Assembly: GCF_003790525.1 (NCBI RefSeq)
Contig: NZ_CP033635.1
Direction: 5' to 3' (one strand)
DNA length: 64,000 nt
Origin: Escherichia coli
GTDB taxonomy: Bacteria > Pseudomonadota > Gammaproteobacteria > Enterobacterales > Enterobacteriaceae
Shown: piece after piece, positions 3,683 through 64,000 of the stretch
How the letters are laid out: the number at the start of each line of letters is the position of its first letter
How positions within the stretch are numbered: the stretch's first letter is position 1
Position numbers and translations under genes: made by a program
Notes under the pieces: generated by a model
What the model saw: the letters and a program-made list of their open reading frames with translations, nothing else
What the model was told of the DNA's origin: nothing
Database searches by the model: none

Positions 3683-3847
3683 GACAACTCCGGCAGGATA
3701 CTAAAGGCCGCAAGTGTAACGCGAATCACGCGGCGGGCAAATATCCGAACGCCAGGAGCGAAGATAAAGCAAAGTAAAAAGCCTCGCATTCGGCGAGGCT
3801 TTATAGCGAGATTGAAGCGTATTCACACTTCAGATCAGTGGATTCGA

Positions 3848-4057
3848 TCAGATAGCTGTTACGTTAACAGCTGCCGGACCTTTCTGGCCGTCCTGAATTT
3901 CGAACTCAACGTTCTGACCTTCAGCCAGAGTTTTGAAGCCATTACCCTGGATAGCGGAGAAGTGTACGAACACGTCTTTGCTGCCATCAGCCGGAGTAAT
4001 GAAGCCAAAACCTTTAGACTCGTTGAACCACTTAACCTGACCTTTAATCTTTGCCAT
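3848..4057 (-). CDS. cspC: Cold-shock protein CspC
   Basis: 69-aa CSD protein, [20 protein letters not shown]. Confidence 0.95.
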
Positions 4058-4069
4058 TTGAAAAATTCC

Positions 4070-4213
4070 TTAGATTGTTTTCTTCGCCCGCAGGCATAAC
4101 ATAGATAAAACTGACACATTACTGCATGAGGCACCAATATAAGGCTCGGCAGAGAAGCGGTATTCAACGTCAACGTGTTTACTCAGGACTTCTTTACTGA
4201 AAATGCCACACAT
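4070..4213 (-). CDS. yobF: Small protein YobF (not in ORF track)
   Basis: Manual reverse-strand translation gives a 47-aa [50 protein letters not shown] directly upstream of cspC. Confidence 0.85.
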
Positions 4214-4882
4214 AAACAGAACTGTACCTCGTTTAACCCGAAATCTGTTATCACATACAACGTTAATTATGGCAAGCCATTTTTAAACATGTCTCGATCA
4301 GACGCACAAATCTCGATACGTCTTCCACTTTTTTTGCACACTTATGCAACGGAATACGCGCCGATATATCATTGTGCTTAACCTTGCCAGTTCAGGCAGA
4401 TACTTAAACTGACGTATTTTCTAACATAGTTCAATAAGTTCAGTTGTTCCATGCCAATGGGAGAAGTTATTACATAGTGCGTGCAATATCACATTTTCTG
4501 CTATGCAATGAATAAAAAGTTATATCACTTTTTCTCATAAAACAGTCAGTTAACGGCCATCAATCACCCCAAAGAGAAGTCAATCGCCAAAGGTATTGTA
4601 AATTTAAAATAAGAAAAATTGATGAATGCGCAAAAAAATCAAGAGAGAAACGTTTCGCTAATAAATAATACCACGCTTAATCACAAATCCGATGTAAACA
4701 TCCTAATAAATTAATGGGCTAAATATCTTTTTCTGATATCCCGTTACGCAAATAAATAATATGATAATTATTTGAAGTCAGACCAGAGTTTTAATTTGAA
4801 GCAGTTGCACCATGACAGTGCGTATAATCAGGATGAATTGAGTAACCCTTCAACGACGGGGTTACTCAAGATTGAGGAAGGA

Positions 4883-12156: not shown

Positions 12157-12252
12157 GAAATTTCCTGATTACAACGGACGTAGCCAACAAGCGCAGGCAT
12201 GAACAGGCGTCATTATAATGACGCTATCAGTAAATGCTACGTTATCCGTTGA

Positions 12253-12750
12253 TTATCCTGCGACGCTCGCAAAGAATTTTTTGTAATCCGTCGTTGCAAG
12301 CACCTTTTCAAGCTGTGCCACAAGCTGACGTAAGCCTTGCTCGTCCTCGTCTGTAAAGCGACCGAAGACGGTACTGTCGATGTCGAGAACACCAATAATC
12401 TGATTTTTCACCACCAGTGGCAGAACAATTTCAGAATTACTCGCCGCATCACAGGCAATATGCCCGTCAAACGCGTGAACATCCTCGATACGCTGCACTT
12501 GATTGCGGGCAACCGCAGTGCCGCATACGCCGCGCCCAACGGGTATCCGGACACAGGCAATTTTGCCCTGAAATGGTCCGAGCACCAGTGTATCGTCGTC
12601 AAGCAAATAAAAACCTGCCCAGTTTACGTCAGTGAGACGCTCATATAACAACGCACTGGTGTTCGCAAGCGTTGCCAGAAAACTGGTTTCTCCCGCCATC
12701 AGCGCGTTAAAGTCGCGATTAAAATCCGCGTAAAATTCTGCTTTGTTCAT
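12253..12750 (-). CDS. msrC: Free methionine-(R)-sulfoxide reductase (GAF domain)
   Basis: 165-aa product starting MNKAEFYADF; internal start of the track ORF. Confidence 0.85.
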   Translation of the reverse strand: MNKAEFYADFNRDFNALMAGETSFLATLANTSALLYERLTDVNWAGFYLLDDDTLVLGPFQGKIACVRIPVGRGVCGTAVARNQVQRIEDVHAFDGHIACDAASNSEIVLPLVVKNQIIGVLDIDSTVFGRFTDEDEQGLRQLVAQLEKVLATTDYKKFFASVAG

Positions 12751-12879
12751 TATATAATCACTTGGTTGTCTTACCTGGAACTGCCAGCCTATTAAAATAA
12801 GCATTAAATGCGTTAATGCTCAAGATCATTCCCATCATGGGTTAAGATTAATGTTAATTCTTATTACATTTGGCACGTC

Positions 12880-14163
12880 ATGGCTCTTAACACACCACAA
12901 ATTACGCCGACAAAGAAGATAACAGTGAGGGCTATCGGCGAGGAACTGCCGCGTGGTGATTACCAACGTTGCCCGCAATGTGACATGCTGTTTAGCCTGC
13001 CCGAGATAAATTCTCATCAAAGTGCCTATTGTCCGCGCTGTCAGGCAAAAATTCGTGACGGGCGCGACTGGTCGCTAACGCGCCTGGCGGCAATGGCGTT
13101 CGCTATGCTGTTGTTGATGCCGTTTGCCTGGGGCGAACCGCTGTTGCATATCTGGCTGTTAGGCATCCGTATTGACGCCAACGTTATGCAAGGCATCTGG
13201 CAAATGACCAAACAGGGCGATGCGATAACGGGGTCGATGGTCTTTTTTTGCGTTATTGGTGCCCCCCTTATTCTGGTGACCTCCATAGCTTATTTATGGT
13301 TTGGTAACCGACTGGGAATGAATTTACGTCCGGTACTGCTGATGCTTGAGCGACTGAAAGAGTGGGTAATGCTCGATATCTACCTGGTCGGCATTGGCGT
13401 TGCTTCTATAAAGGTACAGGATTATGCCCATATCCAGGCGGGTGTCGGCTTGTTCTCTTTTGTGGCGTTGGTGATTTTAACGACGGTGACGTTGTCACAT
13501 CTTAATGTCGAAGAACTGTGGGAGCGATTTTATCCGCAGTGCCCCGCTACGCGAAGGGACGAGAAACTCCGTGTCTGTCTTGGGTGTCATTTTACCGGCT
13601 ATCCTGATCAGCGTGGTCGCTGCCCGCGTTGCCATATCCCGCTACGCCTGCGTCGCCGTCATAGTCTGCAAAAATGCTGGGCGGCGCTGTTAGCGTCAAT
13701 CGTTTTGTTGTTACCTGCCAACCTGTTGCCTATCTCTATCATTTATCTGAATGGTGGTCGGCAGGAAGATACGATTCTTTCCGGAATTATGTCGCTGGCA
13801 AGTAGCAACATTGCGGTTGCGGGAATCGTGTTTATCGCCAGTATTCTGGTACCGTTTACTAAAGTGATCGTCATGTTCACTTTACTGTTGAGTATTCATT
13901 TTAAATGCCAGCAAGGTTTACGCACACGCATTCTGTTACTGCGGATGGTGACCTGGATTGGTCGCTGGTCGATGCTCGACCTGTTTGTCATATCTTTAAC
14001 CATGTCGCTGATTAATCGCGATCAGATCCTCGCTTTTACTATGGGACCGGCTGCGTTTTATTTCGGCGCAGCGGTAATTTTGACTATTCTTGCTGTGGAA
14101 TGGCTGGACAGCCGCTTACTTTGGGATGCACATGAGTCAGGAAACGCCCGCTTCGACGACTGA
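12880..14163 (+). CDS. yebS: PqiA-family inner membrane protein YebS
   Basis: 427 aa with two CxxC pairs and multiple TM segments. Confidence 0.9.
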
Positions 14164-16765
14164 AGCGCAGATTAAAAATAAACGCCGTATCTCACCTTTC
14201 TGGCTGCTGCCGTTCATCGCGCTAATGATTGCTGGTTGGCTGATTTGGGACAGTTATCAGGACCGGGGTAATACTGTCACCATCGACTTTATGTCGGCGG
14301 ATGGTATTGTTCCAGGCCGTACGCCTGTTCGTTATCAGGGCGTTGAAGTCGGAACTGTGCAGGATATCAGCCTCAGCGACGATCTTCGTAAGATTGAAGT
14401 CAAGGTCAGCATCAAGTCCGATATGAAAGATGCGCTGCGCGAAGAGACACAGTTCTGGTTGGTGACGCCAAAGGCCTCGTTGGCAGGTGTCTCCGGGCTG
14501 GACGCCCTCGTCGGTGGTAATTATATCGGCATGATGCCGGGCAAAGGTAAAGAGCAGGATCACTTTGTCGCACTCGACACCCAACCGAAATATCGGCTGG
14601 ACAATGGCGATCTGATGATCCACCTGCAAGCCCCCGATCTCGGTTCACTGAGCAGTGGTTCATTGGTCTATTTCCGCAAGATCCCGGTGGGTAAAGTCTA
14701 CGACTATGCCATCAATCCCAATAAGCAAGGCGTGGTGATTGATGTCCTGATCGAGCGGCGTTTTACCGATCTGGTGAAAAAAGGTAGCCGTTTCTGGAAC
14801 GTTTCCGGCGTTGATGCCAACGTCAGTATCAGTGGCGCGAAGGTGAAACTGGAAAGTCTGGCGGCACTGGTTAACGGTGCGATTGCCTTCGATTCACCTG
14901 AAGAGTCGAAACCTGCCGAGGCGGAAGATACCTTTGGTCTGTATGAAGATCTCGCCCACAGCCAGCGTGGCGTAATAATAAAACTGGAACTGCCGAGTGG
15001 GGCCGGATTAACCGCCGACTCGACGCCGTTAATGTATCAGGGGCTGGAAGTCGGACAGCTGACTAAACTGGATTTAAATCCTGGTGGTAAAGTCACTGGG
15101 GAAATGACCGTTGATCCCAGCGTCGTCACCCTGCTTCGTGAAAATACCCGCATCGAATTACGCAACCCGAAATTATCCCTTAGCGATGCCAATCTCAGCG
15201 CCCTGCTGACCGGAAAAACCTTTGAGTTGGTGCCCGGCGATGGCGAGCCACGCAAAGAGTTCGTTGTTGTGCCAGGCGAAAAAGCACTGCTGCATGAACC
15301 TGATGTTCTGACACTGACCCTGACAGCACCGGAAAGTTACGGTATTGATGCTGGTCAGCCGCTCATTCTTCACGGCGTGCAGGTAGGCCAGGTTATTGAT
15401 CGTAAACTCACCAGCAAAGGCGTCACCTTTACCGTCGCCATCGAGCCTCAGCATCGAGAACTGGTAAAAGGCGATAGCAAATTTGTCGTCAACAGCCGTG
15501 TCGACGTGAAGGTGGGGCTGGATGGCGTTGAGTTTCTCGGAGCCAGCGCCTCAGAATGGATTAACGGCGGGATACGTATTCTGCCGGGCGATAAAGGCGA
15601 GATGAAAGCCAGCTATCCACTGTATGCCAATCTGGAAAAAGCGCTGGAGAACAGCCTTAGCGATTTACCCACCACAACCCTAAGTTTGAGTGCAGAGACG
15701 CTGCCGGATGTGCAGGCAGGATCGGTAGTGCTGTACCGTAAATTTGAAGTTGGTGAAGTTATTACCGTGCGTCCGCGAGCTAACGCGTTTGATATCGATC
15801 TGCATATTAAGCCGGAGTATCGCAACCTTCTGACCAGCAATAGCGTGTTCTGGGCAGAAGGCGGGGCGAAAGTTCAGCTGAATGGTAGTGGCCTGACCGT
15901 ACAGGCATCCCCGCTCTCCAGAGCATTAAAGGGAGCCATTAGCTTCGATAACCTCAGCGGTGCCAGCGCCAGTCAGCGTAAAGGCGACAAACGTATTCTG
16001 TATGCTTCCGAAACAGCGGCCCGTGCGGTTGGCGGGCAGATTACGCTTCACGCTTTCGATGCCGGAAAACTGGCGGTCGGGATGCCAATTCGCTATCTCG
16101 GTATTGATATCGGGCAAATCCAGACGCTGTATCTGATTACCGCGCGCAATGAAGTGCAGGCAAAAGCGGTGCTCTATCCGGAGTATGTCCAGACCTTCGC
16201 CCGCGGCGGTACGCGCTTCTCGGTGGTCACACCGCAAATTTCAGCCGCGGGCGTTGAGCATCTTGATACCATCCTCCAGCCGTATATCAACGTCGAACCA
16301 GGTCGGGGTAATCCTCGCCGCGACTTTGAGTTGCAAGAAGCCACCATTACTGATTCGCGTTACCTGGATGGCTTAAGCATTATTGTTGAAGCGCCGGAAG
16401 CCGGTTCGTTAGGTATTGGTACGCCTGTGCTGTTCCGTGGTCTGGAAGTCGGTACGGTTACCGGAATGACGCTGGGGACATTGTCTGATCGCGTGATGAT
16501 TGCGATGCGCATCAGTAAACGCTATCAACACCTGGTGCGCAACAATTCCGTCTTCTGGTTGGCATCAGGTTACAGTCTGGACTTTGGTCTGACGGGCGGA
16601 GTAGTGAAAACCGGCACCTTTAACCAATTTATCCGTGGCGGCATCGCCTTCGCCACGCCTCCGGGTACGCCACTGGCACCGAAAGCCCAGGAAGGCAAGC
16701 ACTTCCTGTTGCAGGAAAGTGAACCGAAAGAGTGGCGTGAATGGGGAACTGCGCTTCCCAAATAA
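14132..16765 (+). CDS. yebT: MCE-domain lipid transport protein YebT
   Basis: 877-aa product starting MSQETPAST with repeated MCE domains; overlaps yebS by 32 nt. Confidence 0.9.
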
Positions 16766-16844
16766 TGCCCACTGCTCCGGCGTGTCTGCGCCGGAGCGTT
16801 TATGCTAAACTGCGCGCCTGTTTTTTTGCCAGTGGTATATGCTC

Positions 16845-18284
16845 GTGGCCCAACACACCGTTTATTTCCCGGACGCCTTTCTGACACAAATGCGCGAAGC
16901 TATGCCTTCGACGCTCTCTTTTGATGATTTTCTTGCCGCCTGTCAGCGCCCGTTGCGCCGCAGCATTCGCGTTAATACGCTGAAAATCTCCGTTGCTGAT
17001 TTCCTGCAATTAACCGCTCCTTATGGCTGGACGCTTACGCCAATTCCGTGGTGTGAAGAAGGTTTCTGGATTGAACGCGACGATGAAGATGCATTGCCAT
17101 TGGGTAGTACCGCCGAGCATTTAAGCGGCCTGTTTTATATTCAGGAAGCCAGTTCAATGTTGCCCGTTGCCGCCTTGTTTGCTGACGGTAATGCACCACA
17201 GCGGGTGATGGATGTCGCTGCCGCGCCCGGCTCCAAAACGACGCAAATTGCCGCGCGGATGAATAACGAAGGGGCGATCCTTGCCAATGAGTTTTCCGCC
17301 AGTCGGGTAAAAGTGTTACATGCCAATATCAGCCGCTGTGGCATCAGTAATGTTGCGCTCACACATTTTGATGGCCGCGTGTTTGGTGCGGCAGTGCCAG
17401 AAATGTTCGATGCCATTTTGCTGGACGCTCCCTGCTCCGGCGAAGGCGTGGTGCGTAAAGATCCCGATGCGCTAAAAAACTGGTCACCAGAAAGCAATCA
17501 GGAAATCGCAGCGACCCAACGGGAACTGATCGACAGCGCCTTTCATGCATTACGCCCTGGCGGTACGCTGGTTTACTCGACCTGTACCTTAAACAGGGAA
17601 GAAAACGAAGCCGTTTGCCTGTGGCTGAAAGAGACTTACCCCGACGCAGTAGAGTTTTTACCGCTTGGCGATCTCTTCCCTGGTGCAAATAAGGCGCTGA
17701 CCGAAGAAGGCTTTTTGCATGTTTTCCCACAAATTTACGACTGCGAAGGCTTCTTCGTTGCTCGTCTGCGTAAAACTCAGGCGATCCCCGTCTTACCCGC
17801 CCCAAAATACAAAGTGGGCAATTTCCCGTTTAGCCCGGTGAAAGATCGCGAAGCCGGTCAAATTCGTCAGGCGGCTGCAGGTGTTGGCTTAAACTGGGAT
17901 GGAAACCTGCGACTCTGGCAACGCGACAAAGAACTGTGGTTGTTCCCGGTAGGCATTGAAGCCCTGATCGGTAAAGTCCGATTTTCTCGGTTGGGGATTA
18001 AACTTGCCGAAACGCATAACAAAGGTTATCGCTGGCAGCATGAAGCGGTTATTGCCCTTGCCTCCCCCGACAATGTGAACGCTTTTGAACTGACACCGCA
18101 GGAAGCGGAAGAGTGGTATCGCGGGCGCGATGTTTACCCGCAAGCCGCGCCAGTAGCGGATGATGTATTGGTTACTTTCCAGCATCAGCCGATTGGTTTA
18201 GCCAAACGAATTGGTTCGCGACTGAAAAACAGCTACCCGCGTGAACTGGTGCGAGACGGGAAACTTTTTACCGGTAACGCCTGA
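16845..18284 (+). CDS. rsmF: 16S rRNA m5C1407 methyltransferase RsmF
   Basis: 479 aa, SAM-dependent MTase motifs; GTG start chosen by recall of the annotated N-terminus. Confidence 0.85.
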
Positions 18285-19699: not shown

Positions 19700-19958
19700 G
19701 GGAATGCTTCTGGCTTTTAACAGATAAAAAGAGACCGAACACGATTCCTGTATTCGGTCCAGGGAAATGGCTCTTGGGAGAGAGCCGTGCGCTAAAAGTT
19801 GGCATTAATGCAGGCTTAGTTGCCTTGCTCTTTAAGAATAGATGACGACGCCAGATTTTCCAGTTTGCGTGCAAAATGGTCAATAAAAAGCGCGGTGGTC
19901 ATCAGCTTAAATGTTAAAAACCGCCCGTTCTGGTGAAAGAACTGAGGCGGTTTTTTTA
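19700..19958 (+). ncRNA. ryeA: Antisense small RNA RyeA (SraC), approximate bounds
   Basis: Known to overlap sdsR on the opposite strand; plus-strand intrinsic terminator (ccgcc...ggcgg then T-tract) at about 19920-19958. Confidence 0.45.
19736..19828 (-). ncRNA. sdsR: Small RNA SdsR (RyeB)
   Basis: Reverse-strand sequence GCAAGGCAACTAAGCCTGCATTAATGCCAACTTTTAGCGC...GGTCTCTTTTT recognised as SdsR; lies between pphA and yebY. Confidence 0.75.
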
Positions 19959-51991: not shown

Positions 51992-53662
51992 TCACCGTAT
52001 TCTCTGAAACAGGCCCCAAATCGTCCCAATGATATTATTCACTGTCATGTTAGTTGTGCATAACATCCATGTACCAAGCATAGGATCGCCAAATAAAAAG
52101 CGGATATCTGTAAGTTTATCCGATGACGACGACACAATAACGGCCTGTCTGATACTATACCCGGGTATTTCACGGGTATTTGTTACCTCATGATTTCGTT
52201 CTATGATCCCCAGAACATAAGACCCCACGGAATAAACACTTCCGACGCTCGCTGGCTGCCCCGGCTGTCCCTGCGGACCTGCCGGGCCGCGTTCACCTGT
52301 ATACCCTCTTGGCCCCTGCGGACCTGCCGGGCCGCGTTCACCTGTATCCCCCTTTAGTCCCTGTGGACCTGCCGGACCGCGTTCACCTGTATCGCCCTTT
52401 GGTCCCTGTGGACCACGCTCCCCCTGGGCTCCCAGCTCTTTCCATTCAGACCAGGGGCCATTACCGGTAAAATTACCAGTAACAGTTCTTACGAACTTTC
52501 GTGGTGGGTTCCAGGTTGTATATTCATGCTGGCAATATCCCCATGCACCAACTCTTACCTGAAGATAACCCGCTCTCTGAATCGGATAATTATTTTCTCG
52601 TGTAGCCCTACTGTCTGATGGCTGATAATAATCACCCTGATCGGTCACTCGTCCCAGTCGGTTCAGATCACCATTCAGCAGTTGTCCACGGGATGACTCT
52701 CCTCTTGGTCCCTGTGGACCTGCCGGACCGCGTTCACCTGTATCGCCCTTTGGTCCCTGTGGACCTGCCGGGCCACGTTCACCTGTATCGCCCTTTGGTC
52801 CCTGTGGACCTGCCGGGCCGCGTTCACCTGTTTCACCTTTTGGTCCCTGTGGACCTCCCGGATCTCCTTTATCCCCCTTAGGGCCTTTTTCTCCTCGCTC
52901 ACCCTTTTCTCCCTTCAGACCCTGAGGGCCTTCCGGACCACGTGCACCTGTTTCGCCCTTTGCTCCCTGTGGACCTGCCGGGCCGCGTTCACCTGTTTCA
53001 CCTTTTGCTCCCTGTGGACCTTCCGGACCACGTGCACCTGTTTCGCCCTTTAGTCCCTGTGGACCTGCCGGGCCGCGTTCACCTGTATCGCCCTTTGGTC
53101 CCTGTGGACCTGCCGGACCGCGTTCACCTGTTTCACCTTTTGGTCCCTGTGGTCCTGCCGGGCCACGTGCTCCTGTTTCACCTTTTGGCCCCTGTGGCCC
53201 GGTAATGCCTCTTTCACCACGAGCGCCGGTATCCCCTTTCTCTCCTCGTGGTCCCCGGGCAGATGCAGCTCGTTTCCGGGCTTCCTCCGCCTCAGATGCC
53301 GCGGACTCTGCTCTGTGCAGTATGGACTGCACCACAGCCTCCAGCTCTGACAACGCCTTCGGATAATAAGGAGCATCTTCCAGCTCCATCAGAAATTTAT
53401 TCAGTGTTCCCGGTGAAGAATCCTCCCTGACCACGATATCTCCCACATACGAAGGACGGTAACCTTCTGTATTGAGTGTCACCCTGTATATTCCTGGCTC
53501 CACATCCATACTGTAACTCCCCGTCTCTTCCGGCATGCCATAAGCCACTGTCGTGGCGATGACTGTCTCGCTGGTTCTCTTCGCTTTCAGCTCAATAATG
53601 CATCCCGGTACCGGTTTTCCGGTTCCGTCCCTCAGCACGCCTGAAATTTTTACAGCCGCCAT
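51992..53662 (-). CDS. stf: Side tail fiber protein (Stf-like) with collagen-like Gly-X-Y repeats
   Basis: 556 aa; N-terminus MAAVKISGVLRDGTGKPV resembles lambda Stf; long GPxGxxGxxG runs. Confidence 0.8.
   Translation of the reverse strand: MAAVKISGVLRDGTGKPVPGCIIELKAKRTSETVIATTVAYGMPEETGSYSMDVEPGIYRVTLNTEGYRPSYVGDIVVREDSSPGTLNKFLMELEDAPYYPKALSELEAVVQSILHRAESAASEAEEARKRAASARGPRGEKGDTGARGERGITGPQGPKGETGARGPAGPQGPKGETGERGPAGPQGPKGDTGERGPAGPQGLKGETGARGPEGPQGAKGETGERGPAGPQGAKGETGARGPEGPQGLKGEKGERGEKGPKGDKGDPGGPQGPKGETGERGPAGPQGPKGDTGERGPAGPQGPKGDTGERGPAGPQGPRGESSRGQLLNGDLNRLGRVTDQGDYYQPSDSRATRENNYPIQRAGYLQVRVGAWGYCQHEYTTWNPPRKFVRTVTGNFTGNGPWSEWKELGAQGERGPQGPKGDTGERGPAGPQGLKGDTGERGPAGPQGPRGYTGERGPAGPQGQPGQPASVGSVYSVGSYVLGIIERNHEVTNTREIPGYSIRQAVIVSSSSDKLTDIRFLFGDPMLGTWMLCTTNMTVNNIIGTIWGLFQRIR
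52250..53290. repeat. Collagen-like Gly-X-Y coding repeats (two blocks) within stf
   Basis: Reiterated cctgtggacctgccgg...cgttcacctgt units; protein shows G-P-X-G triplets. Confidence 0.8.
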
Positions 53663-53720: not shown

Positions 53721-56700
53721 TCAGCTAATCGTGATGCCTGCAGTGGCTTTCTTCATCACAACAACCAGCAAATCGCTGATACTTGCTGAGGGATACCAGC
53801 CATTTACCCACCATGCTGATACCGAAAACTCCAGTGTCATTACGCCACTGCCTGCAGGCATATCAATAACACCCGTGTATATCAGCGTATTATCCAGAGC
53901 CGTTCGGTTATAAATTTCAGCCCCGTTTTTCTTCACTATCAGGCGGCATGACGAATAAGGCTCCTTATCCTTCCGCGGATGTCTGGCCCCCCTGAAAGCC
54001 ACCGCTGGAATAACAATTTGCCGGTCAAACGGCTGATCGTCATAAACCCTGACGGTAATGGTCCCTGATGGCCACGTCTCCGGTGCACGGGAGTCACGGG
54101 GGAAAGCCTTACCCACTGTTTTAACGAGATCGCCTTCAATCTGGTTTGCAGACAGTTTTCCCAGAACCCGACAGTTCTCGTTAATCGTGACGTTGTTGAG
54201 CGAGCCCGAATTCGCATTCACGTTACCACTGATATCGACATTTTTCGCCGTCAGACGCCCGTCCGGTGTCAGGGAAAATGCCGGGGGATTGCCGGATGAG
54301 GTGATACTCACCGCAAACAGTCGCTTCATGAAAACATCATTCATGAACAGCTGATCACCCTGAGCCACAAACAAAGGTGTTGTATTGCCATTTTCCGGGT
54401 TAATCATCGCAATACGATCTGCCTGCATCAGGATCTGACTCTGAATTCCGTCAGACGTATTTTCGATTCCGGCACCAATACCTGCAATATAGAGACGTCC
54501 ATCCCGTGTCTGCTGCAGCTTCACAGCCCACATGCTGTTCAGGTTCCGGCGCGTGTCCTCCTGAACTTTCTGTATCTGCTCAATGCTGGCATTCCAGGAT
54601 CCCAGTTTTTTATCCGTGCTCTGTTTGATCTGACTTCCCTTATCATCAACATACTGTCTGATCTGCGCTATCTGTCGGCTGTTCTCCTCCGTGCTCCTGC
54701 TTACTGTCTGCCGGATTTCGCTTCCCATCCTGTCAACTTTTCTGTCAACTTCCGCAATGGCCATTGACTGTTCACCGCTCTTTTTCGCCACAACAGTACT
54801 TATTTGCGCACTTTTATCATCAACATACTGCCTGACCTGCGCTATCTGTCGGCTGTTCTCCTCCGTGCTCCTGCTCACTGTCTGCCGGATTTCACTGCTC
54901 ACGCTGTCAACTTTCCTGTCGACTTTCGCAATGGCCAGCGACTGTTCACCGCTCTTTTTCGCCACCAGTTCCGTTATGCTGTTTTCAGACGCCGTGATTT
55001 TTTTCGTCACCTCTGCGATATCACGCTCCGCACGCTGCCTCACATCTTTCTCCAGCTGCGTCATTTCGCGGTTAATCTCATTCTCCAGTTGCTCAACTTC
55101 AGTGCGCCGTGCAGAGGCATCAATGCGTTCATTGATCTCCCGTCCCAGATGCGTTTTATTTATCGCCCCCCTGAAAAAATTAAGGTAAGCGGCAGGATCA
55201 TTACTCGGTTGACCGACTGCCTCCACGAATGCCGATTTACCGACAGTGTTAACACTGCGGATATAAAAGTAATAATCATGGCCAGGTTTAATATTCTGGC
55301 CGGAGACAAGCCACTGACTTCCGGTACCAAGATAACGGGCTGTGGTTTCAACCTGCCTGATATCGGTAATCCGCTTTTCCGAAAACCAGAACTCAAACTG
55401 TACCGTCGGATCATAAACCGCAAGATGCGGCGTGGCGGTTATCTGAAAATAGCCCGGCGTCAGCTCAATCCGCGACGGCGCTGCCGGTGCGGCAATCCGG
55501 AACGATACCGACGCCGGGTCTCCCTGCTGCCCCCGGGAATTTACTGCCCGGACTGTCAGCCTGTAGTTCCCCGGCGCCAGCTGCCTGAAGCGGTATGTGG
55601 TTTCCGTCGTCCGGGCCGTGCTGACCAGCCGCTCACTGCCATCATCCGCGGCCACGGTCAGGCGAAGCAGGAAGCTCACGCCCTTCACCACCTTCGGCGT
55701 GTCCCAGCGGGCCAGTACCTGATACTCCCCGCTGTCTGCGGTGACTTCGACAGTCAGGTGCTGCACCGCTGGCGGCGTGACACCATTCACCGTGCCGCTC
55801 TGGTCGCCGTCAAAGTGTGCCCCGTTATCCACGATGGCCTCTTTTTCCGGTACATGCTGCACGGCAGTGATGGCATACGTGCCGTCGTCGTTCTCACGGA
55901 TACTCACGCAGCGGAACAGGCGCTGGCGCAGCGTCGGCAGCTTCAGCCCCCACACGCTGTACTCGGCAACGCCGTCAGGAACCCGGCTCACTTTTACCTT
56001 CACGCCGTCGGTGACGGACTGAACCTCCACGCTGACCGGATTGCCACTTCCGTCAACCAGGCTTATCAGCGTGGTACCGGAGGATGGCAGCTTGATTTCA
56101 CGGTCGAGCGTCAGCGTCCGGGTCTGGCTGTTCACCGTCAGCACACGACCACCGGTGCTGATACCGGCATAGTCATCATCACAGATTTCAATGACATCGC
56201 CCGGTACATGGCGAAGCCCTTCAGCACCCACGCTGAAATCCACGGTCTGCGTCTCCAGCAGTTCTGTTTTAATCAGCCACAGCCCGGCGCGGTGTGCCTG
56301 CCCCCGACTGGTACAACCAAAGGCATCCATCTTCGTGACATTACGACCGTAACGGGCAATGGCCTGCGTATCTTCAACAAGCTCTGTCGCCGTCTCCTGG
56401 CCGTTATCCGGGTCACTCCAGTTCACCTCAACGGCATTATGGCGGTCCTTCAGGGCGCTGAAGCTGTAGCGGAACGGCGCGCCATCATCCGGCATCACCA
56501 CATTACTGCGGTTATAGGTCCACACCTTATCCGACTGTCGGTCCTGCACGAACGTCAGCGTCTGCCCGTTCCATACCGGCATACAGCGCATCGCCGAGCA
56601 GAAATCACTGAGCACATCCCACGCCTTACGCTGCCTGGTCAGCCAGGCATTACAGGTGATGCGCGGCTCCGTGCCACCAGAGCCGTCCGGCACCGACTGG

Positions 56701-57626
56701 TCGCAGTACTGGCCGATGACATACAGCGCCCATTTGTCCACATCCGCTGCGCCAACACGTTTCCCCATGCCGTAGCGCGGGTGGGTCAGCATATCCCACA
56801 GACACCAGGCCGGGTTATCGCTGTATGCCGGTTTAAACGTTCCGTCCCAGATACCGCTGTATTGCCGCGTCTGCGGGTTATAATTCGACGGCACCTGCAG
56901 AATGCGCCCGCGAAAATGATAATTACGGCTCACCTGCTGGCTGCCGAACTGCTCCGAATCCACCTGCACACCGACCAGTGCCGTGTTCGGGTAGCACTGT
57001 TTCACATCGATGATTTCGGTGTATGACGACCAGAGCGTTTTGTTCTGCAGCTGGTCTGTGGTGCTGTCCGGCGTCATCCTGCGCATCCGGATACTGAACG
57101 GGCGCGGCGGCAGGTTACCCACCACCACCGAGGCCAGATACTGCGAGGTGGTTTTGCCCTTAATGGTGATGTCTTTTTCCGTTAACCAGCGGCCGTTACG
57201 CTGTATCTGAACCAGCAGGCGGACTTCCGACGGATTCCGGTCCCCCTTTGAGGTGGTTTCCACCAGTGCCTGCACACCGAAGGTCAGGCGCAGACGGTCG
57301 ATGTTTGCCGACGTGATGGTCCGGGTAATCGGCGTGTCGTACTTCACTTCCGTACCCAGCACCGTCTCGGAGCCGGAGGATTCAAATCCCTCCGGCGGTG
57401 TCTGCTCCTGCTCACCGGCACGGAACACCACCGTGACGCCGGAGATGTTGGTATTCCCCTCACTGTCCAGCACCGGCGTACCGTTCAGCAGCACGCTTTT
57501 TAATCCATCCACCGGTCCTTGTATCGGCCCTTCGCTGATGACATCGATCACACTCAGCAACTGCGTGGATTTCAGATTGTCCTTCGCTTCGCGCGGGGTA
57601 TGCCCCTTACTGCTGCCTTTACCCAT
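53721..57626 (-). CDS. J: Tail tip host-specificity protein J
   Basis: 1301 aa; N-terminal 800 aa closely resemble lambda J ([28 protein letters not shown]). Confidence 0.95.
54650..54975. repeat. Imperfect tandem duplication of about 168 bp (56 aa) inside J
   Basis: Two copies of the [18 protein letters not shown]...[27 protein letters not shown] coding unit. Confidence 0.8.
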
Positions 57627-57686
57627 TCGTCATGCTCCATAAACGACAAAACCGCCCGGAGGCGGTTTCACATAAAACATTTTGCA

Positions 57687-58358
57687 TCAGCGACCAATCA
57701 CCACAACCCGGACGCCATCCCCCTCATCCGCTGTGCTGATCTCCTGCGAAATTACCCGTGACCCCACGCGCATTTCACCGTACAGAACGGGCAGAGCATT
57801 CCCCTGGGCAACCATGTTATCCAGTGAGGAGAAATAGGTGTTTTGTTTGCCGTTATCCGTTGTCTGTGTACGGGGAGTTCTGGCTTTCGGTGCCAGCATC
57901 TGCGCCACACCACCGAGCACCATACTGGCACCGAGAGAAAACAGGATGCCGGTCATACCACCGGCCCCAATGGCTGCCCCCCATGCTGCAAGGGTGGCTC
58001 CGGCGGTAAAGAATGATCCGGCAATGGCGGCAGCTCCCAGGACAATCTGGAATACGCCACCTGACTTGGCTCCGGCGACTCTGGGAACAATATGAATCAC
58101 AGCGCCGTCAGGCAGAGTCTCATGTAACTGCGCCGTTAACCCGCACGTGCTGACGTCCCGCCCGGCAATCCGTACCTGATACCAGCCGTCGCTCAGTTTC
58201 TGACGAAACGCCGGGAGCTGTGTGGCCAGCGCCCGAATGGCTTCAGCCCCCGTTTTCACACGAAGGTCGATGCGGCGGCCAAATCGTTGCAAATCCCCGT
58301 AAAGGCAGATGCGTGCCATGCCCGGTGACGCCAGAGGGAGTGTGTGCGTCGCTGCCAT
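57687..58358 (-). CDS. I: Tail assembly protein I
   Basis: 223-aa lambda gpI homolog. Confidence 0.9.
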   Translation of the reverse strand: MAATHTLPLASPGMARICLYGDLQRFGRRIDLRVKTGAEAIRALATQLPAFRQKLSDGWYQVRIAGRDVSTCGLTAQLHETLPDGAVIHIVPRVAGAKSGGVFQIVLGAAAIAGSFFTAGATLAAWGAAIGAGGMTGILFSLGASMVLGGVAQMLAPKARTPRTQTTDNGKQNTYFSSLDNMVAQGNALPVLYGEMRVGSRVISQEISTADEGDGVRVVVIGR

Positions 58359-58999
58359 TTGTCGGTATACCTCTCTCGTTTGCTCAGTTGTTCAGGAATA
58401 TGGTGCAGCAGCCCGCCGTCGCCGCAGTAAATGGCGGCATGATTCGGCACCGATGAACCAAAACAGCACAGCAGCACGTCGCCGGGCTGCGCCTCTGTCA
58501 GTGCGACACGGTAAAAACCAGTCGCCTCCATATTGTCAAGATAGAGATTCTGACCGTGACGCCACCAGTCATCCCCGCGATGAAAATCCGGCATCTCAAT
58601 CCCCGCCAGATGATAAGCATCCCGGAACAGCGTGTAACAGTCCGTCACCCCGTGCTCAAAACGCCGCCCGGTGAGATGCGGCACACAGCGGAACTTGTGA
58701 ATCGTCCCCCGGCAGACCAGCCACCACGGCAAATCACTCTGCACCTGCAGCCGCCGGTCGGCCTCACTCAGCCAGGGCAGACCACCGGGGTGGCTGTGGA
58801 CCAGCGCCACAATCTCACCCTGCATTTCTGCCCGCAGCCAGTCCTCCGGAGCCATCCGGAAATACGCCTCCGGCTCACCGGAGATATTCACGCAGGGAAA
58901 ATATCTTTCCCCCTCCGGCGTTCTCACCACGAAGCCGCACGACTCCGCTGGCGCACATCGCCGGGCGTGCGCCAGAATCGCTGATTCTGTCTCTGTCAT
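58256..58999 (-). CDS. K: Tail tip assembly protein K (MPN/JAMM plus NlpC/P60)
   Basis: Starts MTETESAIL; JAMM motif HSHPGGLPWLSEAD; a shorter 199-aa form would start at 58855; overlaps I by 103 nt. Confidence 0.85.
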   Translation of the reverse strand: MTETESAILAHARRCAPAESCGFVVRTPEGERYFPCVNISGEPEAYFRMAPEDWLRAEMQGEIVALVHSHPGGLPWLSEADRRLQVQSDLPWWLVCRGTIHKFRCVPHLTGRRFEHGVTDCYTLFRDAYHLAGIEMPDFHRGDDWWRHGQNLYLDNMEATGFYRVALTEAQPGDVLLCCFGSSVPNHAAIYCGDGGLLHHIPEQLSKRERYTDKWQRRTHSLWRHRAWHASAFTGICNDLAAASTFV

Positions 59000-59003
59000 G
59001 GAA

Positions 59004-59702
59004 TTACTGCGAAAGTTTGTGAATGGAAAGGAAGCCGCCAAAGTTGCCGACGTTATTGCGAAACTTACAGCCGCTCAGGCATTTGCTGCATTTATCCTTC
59101 GTGATATCGGACGTCGGCTGATCATATTCATCCGCGACCGCCGGACCGCTATAACCGCACTCATCGCCGCGATAGGTCCAGGTGCAGGTGTTGGCCAGCA
59201 TGATACGTCCCGGAAAAACAGCGCCGTCCGTTTCCGTCGGCGTGGCCAGTACAAAGGTCGCGCTGACCGCTGTCAAATCACTGCACTGCTCGATGCGCCA
59301 GCGGCTGATAACCTCCTGCTCCGGATCGGCGTCACTGTTTCCGTTGACGAAGTTCACCGCATCCAGAAAACGGGCATAAACTTTACGCCGGACCACCGTT
59401 CCGCCGACCAGACTCTGCATATCTTCCACCATACCGGTGACCATACCGTACAGGTTAGAAACCGTCAGCGTGGGGCGCGTACTGGTGCCTTTGCCATTCA
59501 GTTCAAAACCACTCCCCTGAATGGGATACGGCTGATACTGTCGCACCTGCCAGGTGACCGGCTCACCTTTTTCGTTCTGCTCATTACAGAAAAAATAACG
59601 TTCTCCACCGACCTCTGTCAGATCGATTTCCCAGAGCACCACGCTGGCCGACTGCTCCGCACGGGTGCATTCATTCAGTGTTTCCTGCCGGATATCCTGC
59701 AT
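59004..59702 (-). CDS. L: Minor tail protein L
   Basis: 232-aa lambda gpL homolog. Confidence 0.9.
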   Translation of the reverse strand: MQDIRQETLNECTRAEQSASVVLWEIDLTEVGGERYFFCNEQNEKGEPVTWQVRQYQPYPIQGSGFELNGKGTSTRPTLTVSNLYGMVTGMVEDMQSLVGGTVVRRKVYARFLDAVNFVNGNSDADPEQEVISRWRIEQCSDLTAVSATFVLATPTETDGAVFPGRIMLANTCTWTYRGDECGYSGPAVADEYDQPTSDITKDKCSKCLSGCKFRNNVGNFGGFLSIHKLSQ

Positions 59703-60031
59703 CAGTTCACCACCTGTTCAAACTCTGCGCTGAACTCAACACGCAGCATACTGACCCGCGACGACCATTTTGCGCAGGTCACCTTTATCTGCCGCCACTC
59801 ATAAGGCGGCGTCCACAGAAAGGCCTTCCAGCCCCCGTGCTCAGCCAGAAACGACTCCAGCGCCGTGGCCTCCTCACGGGAGACAGACAGCGTCACGCTG
59901 TACGTTTTCAGGTCGGCATTCAGACCGGCAGGCGCTCGCTGGGAATAGCCATCACCAAAGCGCACTTTCCTGACGGAAGGGGCCGAAGCCACATCCATAC
60001 CGGGTTTCACTTTCCAGCGGAAGGTCTTCAT
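59702..60031 (-). CDS. M: Minor tail protein M
   Basis: 109-aa lambda gpM homolog. Confidence 0.9.
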   Translation of the reverse strand: MKTFRWKVKPGMDVASAPSVRKVRFGDGYSQRAPAGLNADLKTYSVTLSVSREEATALESFLAEHGGWKAFLWTPPYEWRQIKVTCAKWSSRVSMLRVEFSAEFEQVVN

Positions 60032-62589
60032 CGTCCACCTCCGGAGAACAGGCCACCATCACGCATCTGTGTCTGAATTTCATCACGGGCACCCTTGCGG
60101 GCCATGTCATACACCGCCTTCAGAGCAGCCGGACCTATCTGCCCGTTCGTGCCGTCGTTGTTAATCACCACATGGTTATTCTGCTCAAACGTCCCGGACG
60201 CCTGCGACCGGCTGTCTGCCATGCTGCCCGGTGTACCGACATAACCGCCGGTGGCATAGCCGCGCATCAGCCGGTAGAGATTCCCCACGCCAATCCGGCT
60301 GGTTGCCTCCTTCGTGAAGACAAACTCACCACGGTGAACAATCCCCGCTGGCTCATATTTGCCGCCGGTTCCTGTGAATCCTCCGGTTGAAAAATGGAAT
60401 TTCGCCGCAGCGGCCTGAATGGCTGTACCGCCTGACACTGATGCGCCACCACCGGCAGCACCGCCAATGGCGCTGCCGATACTCCCGACAATCCCCACCA
60501 TTGCCTGCTTAAGCAGAATTTCTGTCATCATGGACAGCACGGAACGGGTGAAGCTGCGCCAGTTCTGCTCACTGCCGGTCAGCATCGCCGCCATATTCTG
60601 TGCAATTCCATCAAAGGTCTGCGTGGCTGCACTTTTAACCTGCGACATACTGTCCGTGGCGCTCTCTTCCCACTCACTCCAGCCGGACTTCAGGCCAGCC
60701 ATCCAGCTCCCGCGAAGCAGGTCTTCAGCCGCCCAGGTCTTTTTCTGCTCTGACATGACGTTATTCAGCGCCAGCGGATTATCGCCATACTGTTCCTTCA
60801 GACGCTGTTCTGTGGCTTCCCGCGCTGCCTGCCGGTCAGTCAGCCCCCGGTTTTTCGCATCAATGGCGGCCCGTTTTGCCCGTTGCTGCTGTGCGAATTT
60901 CTCCGCCTGCTGCGCCAGCGCGTTCAGGCGCTCCTGATACGTAACCTTGTCGCCAAGTGCAGCCAGCTGGCGTTTGTACTCCAGCGTCTCATCTTTATGC
61001 GCCAGCAGGGATTTCTCCTGTGCAGACAGCTGGCGACGTTGTGCCGCCTCCTCCAGTACCGCGAACTGACTCTCCGCCTTCCACAAATCCCGGCGCTGCT
61101 GGCTGATTTTCTCATTCGCTCCGGCATGCTTCTCCAGCATCCGGAGTTCTGCCTGAAGCGTCAGCAGGGCCGCATGAGCACTGTCTTCCTGACGATCGCC
61201 CGCAGACACCTTCACGCCGGACTGTTTCGGCTTTTTCAGCGTCGCTTCATAATCCTTTTTCGCCGCCGCCATCAGCGTGTTGTAATCTGCCTGCAGGATT
61301 TTCCCGTCTTTCAGTGCCTTGTTCAGTTCTTCCTGACGGGCGGTATATTTCTCCAGCGGCGTCTGCAGCCGTTCGTAAGCCTTCTGCGCCTCTTCGGTAT
61401 ATTTCAGCCGTGACGCTTCGGTATCGCTCTGCTGCTGCGCATTTTTGTCCTGTTGACTCTGCTGCTCAGCCTTCTTTCGGGCGGCCTCAAGCGCAAGACG
61501 GGCCTTTTCACGATCATCCCAGTAACGCGCCCGCGCTTCATCGTTAACAAAATAATCATCCTTGCGCAGATTCCAGATGTCGTCCGCTTTCTTAAACGCA
61601 GCCTCTGCCTTAATCAGCATCTCCTGAGCGGTATCAGGACGACCAATATCCAGCACCGCATCCCACATGGATTTGAATGCCCGCGCTGTCCTGTCTGCCC
61701 AGGTCTCCAGCGTGCCCATGTTCTCTTTCAGGCGGCGGGTCTGGTCATCAAACCCTTTCGTTGCGGCCTCGTTCGCCGCCTGCAATGCCCCTGCCTCATC
61801 GCCGGAACGCTGCAACTGAGCAACATACGCAATCTGCTCCGCCGTCACGTTATGGAACTGACGTGCCATCGCTGTCAGTCCCGACGTCGGGTCTGTGGTC
61901 AGCTTCCCGAAGGCTTCAGCGACCTTGTCCACCTCCACGCCGGATGCAGAGGAGAAACGCGCCACACTCTGGCTGATGGACGCAATCTGAGCCTCACCGC
62001 TTACCCCCGCCTTAACCAGTGCACTGAGTGACTCGCTGGTCTGGTTAAACGTCAGCCCTGCCGCCTGCCCGGCTCTGGACAGGACCAGCATACGATCTGC
62101 CGTCAGTCCCGCCTGATTGCCGGAAAGGACCAGCGTTTTGTTGAAATCGGACAGGGTTGAGTTGCCCTGATACCAGGCATACGCCAGCGCACCGGTTGCC
62201 ACCGCCAGCGAGGTGGCCCCGACCATCGGCAGGGTGATCGCACCGGCAAGCCCCCTGAACATGGGGATCATCCCGCCGAAGGAGTCCTTCACCTGACCAC
62301 CCTGTTGCAGCAGGATCAGCCACGGGTTCTGCCCGCCTGCAAGCTGCGTGGCCACGTCAGTGAACTGTGCAGGCAGCATACGCATGGCGGCTTTATACTG
62401 CCCGACGGAAATCCCCGCTTTCTGTGCAGCCAGCGCCTGTCGGCTCAGCGACTGTTCAACGACTGCCGCTGTTTTTTTCGCATCACTTTCCGTACCGGAA
62501 AAATGACGCCTGACTCTGGCCATCTGCTCGTCAAATCTGGCCGCATCCAGACTTAAATCAACGACCAGATCGCCTACCGGTTCAGCCAT
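60028..62589 (-). CDS. H: Tail tape measure protein H
   Basis: 853 aa, coiled-coil rich, lambda gpH-like. Confidence 0.9.
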   Translation of the reverse strand: MAEPVGDLVVDLSLDAARFDEQMARVRRHFSGTESDAKKTAAVVEQSLSRQALAAQKAGISVGQYKAAMRMLPAQFTDVATQLAGGQNPWLILLQQGGQVKDSFGGMIPMFRGLAGAITLPMVGATSLAVATGALAYAWYQGNSTLSDFNKTLVLSGNQAGLTADRMLVLSRAGQAAGLTFNQTSESLSALVKAGVSGEAQIASISQSVARFSSASGVEVDKVAEAFGKLTTDPTSGLTAMARQFHNVTAEQIAYVAQLQRSGDEAGALQAANEAATKGFDDQTRRLKENMGTLETWADRTARAFKSMWDAVLDIGRPDTAQEMLIKAEAAFKKADDIWNLRKDDYFVNDEARARYWDDREKARLALEAARKKAEQQSQQDKNAQQQSDTEASRLKYTEEAQKAYERLQTPLEKYTARQEELNKALKDGKILQADYNTLMAAAKKDYEATLKKPKQSGVKVSAGDRQEDSAHAALLTLQAELRMLEKHAGANEKISQQRRDLWKAESQFAVLEEAAQRRQLSAQEKSLLAHKDETLEYKRQLAALGDKVTYQERLNALAQQAEKFAQQQRAKRAAIDAKNRGLTDRQAAREATEQRLKEQYGDNPLALNNVMSEQKKTWAAEDLLRGSWMAGLKSGWSEWEESATDSMSQVKSAATQTFDGIAQNMAAMLTGSEQNWRSFTRSVLSMMTEILLKQAMVGIVGSIGSAIGGAAGGGASVSGGTAIQAAAAKFHFSTGGFTGTGGKYEPAGIVHRGEFVFTKEATSRIGVGNLYRLMRGYATGGYVGTPGSMADSRSQASGTFEQNNHVVINNDGTNGQIGPAALKAVYDMARKGARDEIQTQMRDGGLFSGGGR

Positions 62590-63016
62590 ACCGGACTCCT
62601 CCTGCGATCCCTTCTGATACTGTCATCAGCATTACGTCATCCTCCGTCATGTCCGCCACATCCGGGGATGCAGGGATAACTTCATTCCCGTCCGGGCCAA
62701 AGCGGACGCCTCCGGCAAGCCCTGCCGCTTTCTGCATCAGCACATCATCTTCAGGCTCTTCGTCAGCCTCGCGCCGGTTCAGCAGACTGAAATCCAGCGG
62801 ATGCATATCCGGATCGCTGAAAAACAGGCTGAGCACGGTGTACGTCAGCCCGGAAAAGTGCATATCCAGCAGAACATCATGAAAATAATGGGTACTGTAA
62901 AAGCGGTGCCAGTCGGCATACTCCGTGGATGACATCCCGGCAAGCATGGCACGCCAGTCGGGTCGCCCCATCTCACGCGCCAGTTTCAGGGCAAAACTCA
63001 GCTCACCGTCGAACAC
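62582..63016 (-). CDS. T: Tail assembly chaperone T reading frame (expressed as G-T fusion by -1 frameshift)
   Basis: 144-aa frame overlapping the 3' end of G in the -1 frame, as in lambda. Confidence 0.8.
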   Translation of the reverse strand: MFDGELSFALKLAREMGRPDWRAMLAGMSSTEYADWHRFYSTHYFHDVLLDMHFSGLTYTVLSLFFSDPDMHPLDFSLLNRREADEEPEDDVLMQKAAGLAGGVRFGPDGNEVIPASPDVADMTEDDVMLMTVSEGIAGGVRYG

Positions 63017-63420
63017 TTTCCCGCAGAAACAGGCTCTGCAGGCCCGGCGTCCTCTGTCTGTTCAGGGGTATTATTCACAACAAACTCATACATACCGGAC
63101 AGCCGGTACACCACGTTTTCAGCATGAGAAATTGCCTCCGTGGGCCAGGTGGTAAGCACTTCCTGCTCAATCTGTTTAACGGCTTCATTCATGGAAGGCT
63201 GCTTTGTCTTCTGCGGATGGTTATGCCACAGGGACATCGCCACCACAAAAGCGCCGGTTTTGATAAGGTCTGCCAAAGCAACCTGTCGGTTGCTGTCGGA
63301 GTCCGCCTGTTCTGCCTGTTGTTTCATCAGAAAAAGATGCTCAATACGCTGCAGGGCTGACAGTTCAGAAAGCGTGACGGTCACGCCGTTATGTTCAAAT
63401 GATTCGGTTTTCAGGAACAT
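62998..63420 (-). CDS. G: Tail assembly chaperone G
   Basis: 140 aa starting MFLKTESFEHNGVTVTLSELSALQRIEH, lambda gpG-like. Confidence 0.9.
   Translation of the reverse strand: MFLKTESFEHNGVTVTLSELSALQRIEHLFLMKQQAEQADSDSNRQVALADLIKTGAFVVAMSLWHNHPQKTKQPSMNEAVKQIEQEVLTTWPTEAISHAENVVYRLSGMYEFVVNNTPEQTEDAGPAEPVSAGKCSTVS
63016..63022 (-). other. Programmed -1 ribosomal frameshift slippery site GGGAAAG (G to G-T)
   Basis: Minus-strand GGGAAAG heptamer at the end of G where the T frame begins. Confidence 0.6.
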
Positions 63421-63435
63421 CGCTGACTCTCCGGA

Positions 63436-64000
63436 TTAACTGGCGGTGACGTTGATTTCTGCAACCGCAGCAAGTTCACCATTACCGGATACGACCGGAA
63501 TGTTGACCCTGCCTGCAGCAACGCCCTTCACGGTGATGGTCATACCACTGACCGACACGGTGGCTTTTGTTTTATCCGCAGACACCGCACGGAAGCTCTT
63601 GTCAGTTGCGCCTTCCGGCTGGAATGCCACGGTCAGCGTGGTGCTCTGCCCTTTCACCACCGAGGTGCTGGCAGGCGTCACGGTCATGCCGGTTGCCGCT
63701 GTTAGCGTGCTGCGATCTTCTGCCATCGACGGACGTCCCACGTTGGTGACTTTCACCGTGCGGGTGATCACTTCCTTCGCTGTCACCGCCTTACCGATGC
63801 TGCTGACCCAGCCGCGGAACACATCGACCGTGCCGTTCGGGAAGCGGATTTTATAGGCACGGGTATCACCTTCATTAAACCACGCCAGCAGCGCCTGCTG
63901 CCCCTGCTCTCCGGGCATCCACGCCAGCGTGAAGCTGGTATCTCCGGCGGATTTCTGCCCCTGTCCGGTCGCGGCCCAGTCCGAATCTTCATCATCGAGA
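63436..64000 (-). CDS. V: Major tail protein V, C-terminal part (5' end beyond window)
   Basis: Begins mid-protein at [37 protein letters not shown] and ends with the Ig-like C-terminal domain; lambda gpV-like. Confidence 0.9.

What the first reader, a model, noticed from the sequence alone, without database searches (positions are those of the whole stretch)
62990..63030. Conserved G-T programmed frameshift in the tail chaperone genes
The slippery heptamer GGGAAAG lies at the G/T frame overlap exactly as in lambda, indicating that the frameshift-dependent G-T fusion is retained.
Basis: partly seen in the sequence, partly recalled or inferred. Interest (0 to 1): 0.3.

Follow-up and report, generated by a model that had tools for sequence, protein, structure and literature searches.

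The report
Lambda-type G/GT tail chaperone frameshift site
This is the well-known ribosomal frameshift site of phage lambda's tail-assembly chaperone genes G and T, sitting unchanged in a lambda-like prophage of an E. coli chromosome, so it is real but ordinary.

Summary
GGGAAAG lies on the minus strand at 63022..63016 (the + strand reads CTTTCCC). In the frame of a 140-codon G gene (63420..62998) it reads G GGA AAG, Gly134-Lys135, five codons before the G stop. The T frame (63016..62582, 144 codons) is -1 relative to G. A -1 slip would give a 279-aa fusion, ...PVSAGK|VFDGEL....

G to T is 95.9% identical to lambda. The block from 17 nt upstream to 307 nt downstream of the heptamer is identical to lambda. 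The T part is 144/144 aa identical. Pfam assigns G to PF06894 and T to PF06223, and the pair lies between the V and H homologues.

More distant relatives keep a shift-prone heptamer at the same place: GGGAAAG, AAAAAAG or GGAAAAG. The heptamer alone is not enriched in the window (11 copies against 7.7 expected). Its frame, position and homology carry the argument.

The mechanism (about 4% -1 slippage giving gpG and gpGT) is inferred from published lambda work; expression was not measured here. The window ends inside V, so I cannot tell whether the prophage is complete.

Verdict: already known, low interest.

The parts
63016..63022 (-). Slippery heptamer G GGA AAG (X XXY YYZ in the G frame), codons 134-135 of G
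   Evidence: Identical in sequence, phase and position to lambda, HK630 and 434.
62998..63420 (-). Gene G, the tail assembly chaperone (zero-frame product gpG, 140 aa)
   Evidence: ORF; PF06894 Phage_TAC_2, E 1.3e-57; 126/140 aa identical to lambda G. A GGAG-type Shine-Dalgarno sequence lies 7 nt before the ATG.
62582..63016 (-). T reading frame, -1 relative to G, 144 codons. It would be translated only as the C-terminal part of gpGT.
   Evidence: PF06223 Phage_tail_T, E 2.1e-14; 144/144 aa identical to lambda T, with 3 synonymous changes. There is no ATG and no well-spaced Shine-Dalgarno sequence in front.
62582..63420 (-). Coding span of the predicted gpGT fusion: 279 aa, G codons 1-135 followed by the T frame from GTG at 63016
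   Evidence: One search gives the conceptual -1 translation ...PVSAGKVFDGELSFAL.... Phage 434 and LLS records annotate the same join.
62709..63039 (-). Block identical to lambda around the slip site, from 17 nt upstream to 307 nt downstream of the heptamer
60028..62589 (-). Gene H, the tape measure protein (853 aa), the published binding partner of gpG and the G part of gpGT
   Evidence: TMP_2 and Tape_meas_lam_C; 839/853 aa identical to lambda H.
63436..64000 (-). 3' part of gene V, the major tail tube protein and published partner of the T domain. It is cut off by the end of the window.
   Evidence: Phage_TTP_12 and Big_2; the window up to 64000 aligns to lambda from 9131.

Best explanation
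[quoted passage not shown] It sits in a lambda-like prophage inserted next to yecD in an E. coli chromosome. Most ribosomes would read G to its stop and make gpG (140 aa). A small fraction, about 4% in lambda, would slip back one base on G GGA AAG while tRNA-Gly and tRNA-Lys occupy the P and A sites. The tRNAs re-pair with GGG AAA and translation continues in the T frame, giving gpGT (279 aa). In the published lambda model, gpG and the G part of gpGT coat the tape measure protein H, and the T part recruits the tail tube protein V. Neither chaperone ends up in the virion. The sequence, frame relation, homology and gene order are shown here. The slippage itself, its rate and the chaperone roles are inferred from lambda.
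For: The heptamer lies in X_XXY_YYZ phase, 5 codons before the G stop, and T is in the -1 frame. The region is 96.3% identical to lambda 9531-10731. It is identical to lambda from 17 nt upstream to 307 nt downstream of the heptamer, so any local cis context that acts in lambda is present here. The T part is 144/144 aa identical with only synonymous changes, and G is 126/140 identical. Pfam gives PF06894 for G and PF06223 for T. The gene order is V-G-T-H-M-L-K-I-J, all ORFs have lambda lengths and none contains a stop. T has no ATG; its only start-like codon, GTG, lies inside the slip site with GGGA just 2 nt upstream. G and H both have GGAG-type Shine-Dalgarno sequences at 7 nt. Diverged relatives keep a shift-prone heptamer ending in AAG at the homologous place although the flanks differ: PhiR12_4 has GGGAAAG, CP-1639 and 1720a-02 have AAAAAAG, and N15, mEp213, LLS and Kp4865-4 have GGAAAAG. 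The N15 and LLS records annotate it as the -1 frameshift site. Published lambda work gives slippery sequence GGGAAAG, about 96% zero frame, a 30:1 product ratio needed for tail assembly, and dependence on tRNA-Lys mnm5s2U34 (PMC3296357; PMC5009743; PMC7618472).
Against: No expression data exist for this strain. The window ends inside V, so head, lysis and regulatory genes were not seen and the prophage could be defective or silent. Close relatives are identical around the site, so they say nothing about selection on the heptamer; that argument rests on seven more distant relatives (eight if phage 434, also identical around the site, is counted). The predicted RNA structure around the site is not significantly more stable than shuffled sequence (z = -1.77), so no stimulatory element is shown. 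As far as I recall, none is required in lambda.
Confidence: 0.95

Rival explanations
1. T is translated on its own from the GTG at 63016, and the heptamer is an incidental part of the overlap. G and T would then be two separate proteins.
For: the ORF listing reports a GTG-initiated 144-aa ORF at 62582..63016. Many database records, including J02459 and RefSeq E. coli genomes, annotate T as a separate CDS.
Against: The only purine-rich stretch (GGGA) ends 2 nt before the GTG, which is too close for a normal Shine-Dalgarno spacing. G and H have GGAG motifs at 7 nt. Relatives with AAAAAAG or GGAAAAG have no start codon at that place (GCA or GCC follows), yet they keep the open -1 frame and the ...K|(V/A)(F/L)..EL junction. 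Published lambda work describes T sequence only as part of gpGT (PMC5009743, PMC3296357).
Confidence: 0.02
2. The site is an inherited relic in a defective or permanently silent prophage. The signal is intact in sequence but no longer used.
For: The window stops inside V, so completeness cannot be judged. E. coli genomes carry many lambdoid prophage remnants: 4597 of 5426 complete genomes match this tail region, with a median of 3 places each. In the O104:H4 counterpart the tape measure gene is annotated as frameshifted, that is a pseudogene.
Against: All nine tail genes visible here (V in part, then G, T, H, M, L, K, I, J) are open, and all but J have the lambda length (J is longer at its diverged C-terminus). 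The three changes in T relative to lambda are all synonymous. That pattern fits continued purifying selection or recent acquisition, not decay.
Confidence: 0.12
3. The fusion arises by transcriptional slippage of RNA polymerase, not by ribosomal slippage.
For: Both mechanisms can give a -1 frame fusion at homopolymeric runs. The review PMC5009743 treats transcriptional slippage alongside ribosomal frameshifting.
Against: From general knowledge, transcriptional slippage needs long A or T runs, typically 7 or more. This site has only G3 and A3. The dependence of lambda gpGT levels on tRNA-Lys U34 modification points to a ribosomal event (PMC3296357).
Confidence: 0.01

Closest known systems
Bacteriophage lambda G/GT programmed -1 frameshift (Levin, Hendrix and Casjens 1993; lambda J02459 nt 9711-10549)
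   Same: The heptamer G GGA AAG, its codon phase, its distance to the G stop (5 codons) and the junction peptide SAGK|VFDGEL are the same. The T sequence is identical (144/144 aa). The 331 nt around the site are identical. The V-G-T-H gene order and the ORF lengths (140 and 144 codons) are the same.
   Different: G differs at 14 of 140 residues. Thirteen of these fall in codons 30-74 (window 63334..63196), a patch that looks like a recombination mosaic. The phage is integrated next to yecD in a truncated yecE, not at lambda's attB, and its J C-terminus and side tail fibre genes differ.
Conserved tail assembly chaperone frameshift of long-tailed dsDNA phages (Xu, Hendrix and Duda 2004), for example N15 genes 14/15, phi80-like mEp213, LLS, and the Stx-phage-type CP-1639
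   Same: All have two overlapping ORFs between the major tail and tape measure genes. The second ORF is in the -1 frame, and a shift-prone heptamer ending in AAG lies a few codons before the first stop.
   Different: Those relatives use AAAAAAG or GGAAAAG, and their G and T sequences are only about 72-81% identical at the DNA level over part of the region. The window carries the lambda version itself.

Membership tests
Lambda-type G/GT tail assembly chaperone with programmed -1 ribosomal frameshift | Two ORFs located between the major tail (tube) gene and the tape measure gene | tested here: met
   The order on the minus strand is V (63436..>64000), G (62998..63420), T (62582..63016), H (60028..62589). 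Pfam identifies V, G, T and H.
Lambda-type G/GT tail assembly chaperone with programmed -1 ribosomal frameshift | The downstream ORF overlaps the 3' end of the upstream ORF and is in the -1 frame relative to it | tested here: met
   The -1 frame is open from 63061. It overlaps G by 64 nt and runs 144 codons past the slip site.
Lambda-type G/GT tail assembly chaperone with programmed -1 ribosomal frameshift | A slippery heptamer X XXY YYZ, in phase with the upstream ORF, inside the overlap | tested here: met
   G GGA AAG at 63022..63016, codons 134-135, 5 codons before the G stop. About 0.06 in-frame heptamers of any kind are expected by chance in the overlap.
Lambda-type G/GT tail assembly chaperone with programmed -1 ribosomal frameshift | Sequence homology of both parts to lambda gpG and gpT | tested here: met
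   PF06894 at E 1.3e-57 and PF06223 at E 2.1e-14, both above the curated cut-offs. G is 126/140 and T 144/144 aa identical to lambda.
Lambda-type G/GT tail assembly chaperone with programmed -1 ribosomal frameshift | The downstream ORF lacks its own translation initiation signals | tested here: met
   There is no ATG. The only candidate is the GTG inside the heptamer, with GGGA 2 nt upstream; G and H have GGAG motifs at 7 nt. This is a judgement from sequence, not a measurement of initiation.
Lambda-type G/GT tail assembly chaperone with programmed -1 ribosomal frameshift | Conservation of a shift-prone site at the homologous position in diverged relatives | tested here: met
   PhiR12_4 has GGGAAAG. 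CP-1639 and 1720a-02 have AAAAAAG. N15, mEp213, LLS and Kp4865-4 have GGAAAAG. All lie at the aligned position with diverged flanks. The sample is small, seven diverged relatives.
Lambda-type G/GT tail assembly chaperone with programmed -1 ribosomal frameshift | Two protein products, gpG and gpGT, at a ratio of roughly 30:1, both required for tail assembly and absent from virions | not testable with these tools
   This is known for lambda from the literature (PMC5009743; PMC3296357). No protein data exist for this strain.

The most novel reading that the evidence does not exclude
The 13-residue mosaic patch in gpG (codons 30-74) could mark a variant chaperone matched to a co-varying tape measure protein. 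Alternatively, it could alter the gpG:gpGT balance that this prophage needs, which would make it a natural variant for mapping the G-H interface. Nothing in the evidence points to a change in the frameshift signal, which is identical to lambda's.
Probability: 0.03. Interest if true: 0.2.

Novelty: already known. Interest (0 to 1): 0.05.

Why it matters
It matters little beyond correct annotation. G and T in this prophage should be annotated as gpG plus a joined, ribosomal-slippage gpGT CDS, not as two independent genes, which is how RefSeq annotates the equivalent genes. The biology has been textbook material since 1993, and this tail region occurs in most E. coli genomes: 4597 of 5426 complete genomes match it.

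Tried and rejected
1. Heptamer enrichment in the window: 11 copies against 7.7 expected, not significant. Occurrence alone is therefore no argument. I used phase, position and homology instead.

2. A stimulatory RNA structure: folding 161 nt around the site gives -66.4 kcal/mol, z = -1.77, and 9 of 200 shuffles fold as well. This is not convincing and I did not pursue it. The flank is identical to lambda in any case.

3. Solved structures: the 279-aa GT fusion has no PDB sequence relative at E <= 0.01.

4. Primary papers: Xu et al. 2013 (PMC3762263) is not held in the library. One literature query failed on term length. Levin 1993 and Xu 2004 are cited only through papers that cite them.

5. 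Independent initiation of T and transcriptional slippage were both considered and rejected on sequence grounds (only G3 and A3 runs).

6. My first codon print-out was out of phase by one base. The phase was settled from the offset (398 mod 3 = 2) and re-printed correctly. In one search the automatic choice of the last AAG picked the wrong codon for CP-1639 and 1720a-02. Their site is the A AAA AAG found.

Full report
**Observation**

The heptamer GGGAAAG occurs at 63016..63022 on the minus strand, inside the coordinates given. The + strand reads CTTTCCC there. On the minus strand ORF listing finds a 140-aa ORF at 63420..62998 and a 144-codon ORF at 63016..62582.

The heptamer begins at 0-based offset 398 of the first ORF. 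Since 398 mod 3 = 2, the zero frame reads GCG GGA AAG TGT TCG ACG GTG AGC TGA. That is Ala-Gly134-Lys135, followed by five codons and the stop. The second ORF starts with the last G of the heptamer and is therefore -1 relative to the first. This frame is open from 63061, which gives a 64-nt overlap with G. A conceptual -1 slip after Lys135 gives a 279-aa protein with the junction ...PVSAGK|VFDGELSFAL....

**Chance**

The heptamer by itself is not remarkable. There are 11 copies in the window against 7.68 +/- 2.56 in shuffles, and 14 of 100 shuffles have at least 11.

The context is what stands out. In 48 long non-nested ORFs of the window, in-frame X_XXY_YYZ heptamers occur at 49 of 17434 codon positions (0.28%). 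That gives about 0.06 expected in a 21-codon overlap. None of the 49 is GGGAAAG. The -1 frame behind them stays open for a median of 9 codons, against 144 here. The only other case of 100 codons or more lies in an ORF antisense to gene L and is not a real gene.

**Identity**

- Pfam assigns the first ORF to PF06894 (lambda tail assembly chaperone G, E 1.3e-57) and the second to PF06223 (minor tail protein T, E 2.1e-14).
- The 853-aa ORF downstream is a tape measure protein, and the partial ORF upstream is a lambda-type tail tube protein.
- The 1.2-kb region is 96.3% identical to lambda J02459 9531-10731, where G (9711-10133) and T (10115-10549) are annotated with the same lengths.
- Over G to T there are 34 base differences from lambda. 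Twenty-five of them cluster in G codons 29-75.
- G is 126/140 aa identical to lambda G. T is 144/144 aa identical, with three synonymous changes.
- The stretch from 17 nt upstream to 307 nt downstream of the heptamer (window 63039..62709) is identical to lambda. Any local cis context that operates in lambda is therefore present here.
- The whole tail module aligns to lambda 9131-17959 at 95.5% (window 64000..55172).
- H, M, L, K and I have exactly the lambda lengths and no internal stops.

**Conservation in diverged relatives**

I fetched G-T regions from phages that are 72-81% identical at the DNA level.

| Relatives | Heptamer at the homologous place |
|---|---|
| PhiR12_4 | G GGA AAG, with different flanks |
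| CP-1639, 1720a-02 | A AAA AAG |
| N15, mEp213, LLS, Kp4865-4 | G GAA AAG |

In every case the site lies at the aligned position, five codons before the G stop (one in Kp4865-4). The -1 frame behind it stays open, and the junction reads K|(V/A)(F/L)..EL. The N15 and LLS records annotate the site as the -1 frameshift sequence, and the phage 434 and LLS records annotate the joined CDS. The heptamer type changes while its slipperiness and position are kept, which is the pattern expected of a functional recoding site. The sample is small.

**Mechanism (inferred from lambda)**

Published work on lambda gives the following.

- The slippery sequence is GGGAAAG, and the zero frame is kept about 96% of the time (PMC3296357, Table 1 and text, citing Levin et al. 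1993).
- The roughly 30:1 ratio of gpG to gpGT is crucial for tail assembly.
- gpG and the G part of gpGT bind the tape measure protein gpH. The T part binds the tube protein gpV. Neither chaperone is in the virion (PMC5009743).
- Hypomodified tRNA-Lys (mnm5s2U34) raises shifting on G_GGA_AAG and lowers phage yield (PMC7618472).

Because the local sequence here is identical to lambda and the host is E. coli, the same behaviour is expected. The host backbone at 20000-44000 is 100% identical to strains SMS-3-5 and KFu014. This step is inference; nothing here measures translation.

**Rivals**

- Independent initiation of T is unlikely. There is no ATG, and the only candidate is the GTG inside the heptamer, with GGGA just 2 nt upstream, whereas G and H have GGAG motifs at 7 nt. 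Relatives also lack a start codon at that position.
- Transcriptional slippage is unlikely with only G3 and A3 runs.
- I cannot exclude that the prophage is defective or silent, because the window ends inside V. The intact ORFs and the purely synonymous changes in T argue against decay.
- An RNA fold of the surroundings is not significantly stable (z = -1.77), so I claim no stimulatory element.

**Context**

The prophage sits next to yecD in an E. coli chromosome, downstream of znuACB-ruvBA-ruvC-aspS. A remnant of yecE lies at 47880..47990, and a DinI-like gene at 48238..48486. Tail regions of this kind match 4597 of 5426 complete E. coli genomes.

**Verdict**

This is the known lambda G/GT frameshift in a lambda-like prophage. 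It is already known and of low interest, and its only practical consequence is that gpGT should be annotated as a ribosomal-slippage join.

Noticed in passing
window 49386..51002 (-); repeats at 49808..50364: A 538-aa ORF has a signal-peptide-like N-terminus and a C-terminal YadA-like membrane anchor (PF03895, E 1.2e-16; PDB 2lme YadA, E 1.9e-17). It contains 5.6 near-perfect 99-bp (33-aa) tandem repeats. It looks like a trimeric autotransporter adhesin carried as cargo at the end of the prophage. The segment 48500..53675 has no counterpart in the similar O104:H4 prophage.
   Followed up: partly
window 48869..49324 (-): A 151-aa ORF with a sigma-70 region 4 / helix-turn-helix domain (PF08281, E 2.2e-07) lies immediately downstream of the YadA-anchor gene. 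It may be its regulator.
   Followed up: no
window 53721..57626 (-): The J (tail tip) homologue is 1301 aa against 1132 aa in lambda. DNA similarity to lambda stops at window 55172 (lambda 17959), so the C-terminal, receptor-binding part is different, although it still ends in a PF12421 GpJ C-terminal domain.
   Followed up: partly
window 51992..53662 (-) and 51402..51977 (-): A side tail fibre gene has the prophage tail fibre N-terminal domain and long collagen-like Gly-X-Y repeats (45-bp period arrays at 52267..52414 and 52705..53197). It is followed by a DUF4376 tail fibre assembly gene. No lom homologue was seen between J and this gene.
   Followed up: no
window 63196..63334 (-), G codons 29-75: Twenty-five of the 34 base differences from lambda in G-T cluster here and cause 13 amino-acid changes. 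The rest of G-T is almost identical to lambda, so this is a small recombination mosaic inside the chaperone gene.
   Followed up: partly
window 47302..48500: This is the prophage-host junction. yecD (isochorismatase family) at 47302..47883 is followed by the first 30 or so codons of yecE (47880..47990). Then comes an A+T-rich stretch and a DinI-like gene (48238..48486, +). The host backbone is 100% identical to E. coli SMS-3-5 and KFu014, but the best match to the tail region in complete genomes is only 98% (TUM9803).
   Followed up: partly
window 19722..19866 (both strands): The convergent sRNA pair SraC/RyeA (+, 176 bits) and SdsR/RyeB (-, 114 bits) is found by Rfam at gathering threshold.
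   Followed up: no
window 3773..4233 (-): Rfam finds a full-length match to the cspA thermoregulator 5' leader (137.6 bits), indicating a cold-shock-protein family gene on the minus strand.
   Followed up: no
window 58998..59804 (+): A 268-aa ORF runs antisense to gene L and part of K. It also carries an in-frame TTTCCCA heptamer with a long open -1 frame. It is almost certainly a shadow ORF of the tail genes, and shows that ORF and heptamer criteria alone give false positives.
   Followed up: no
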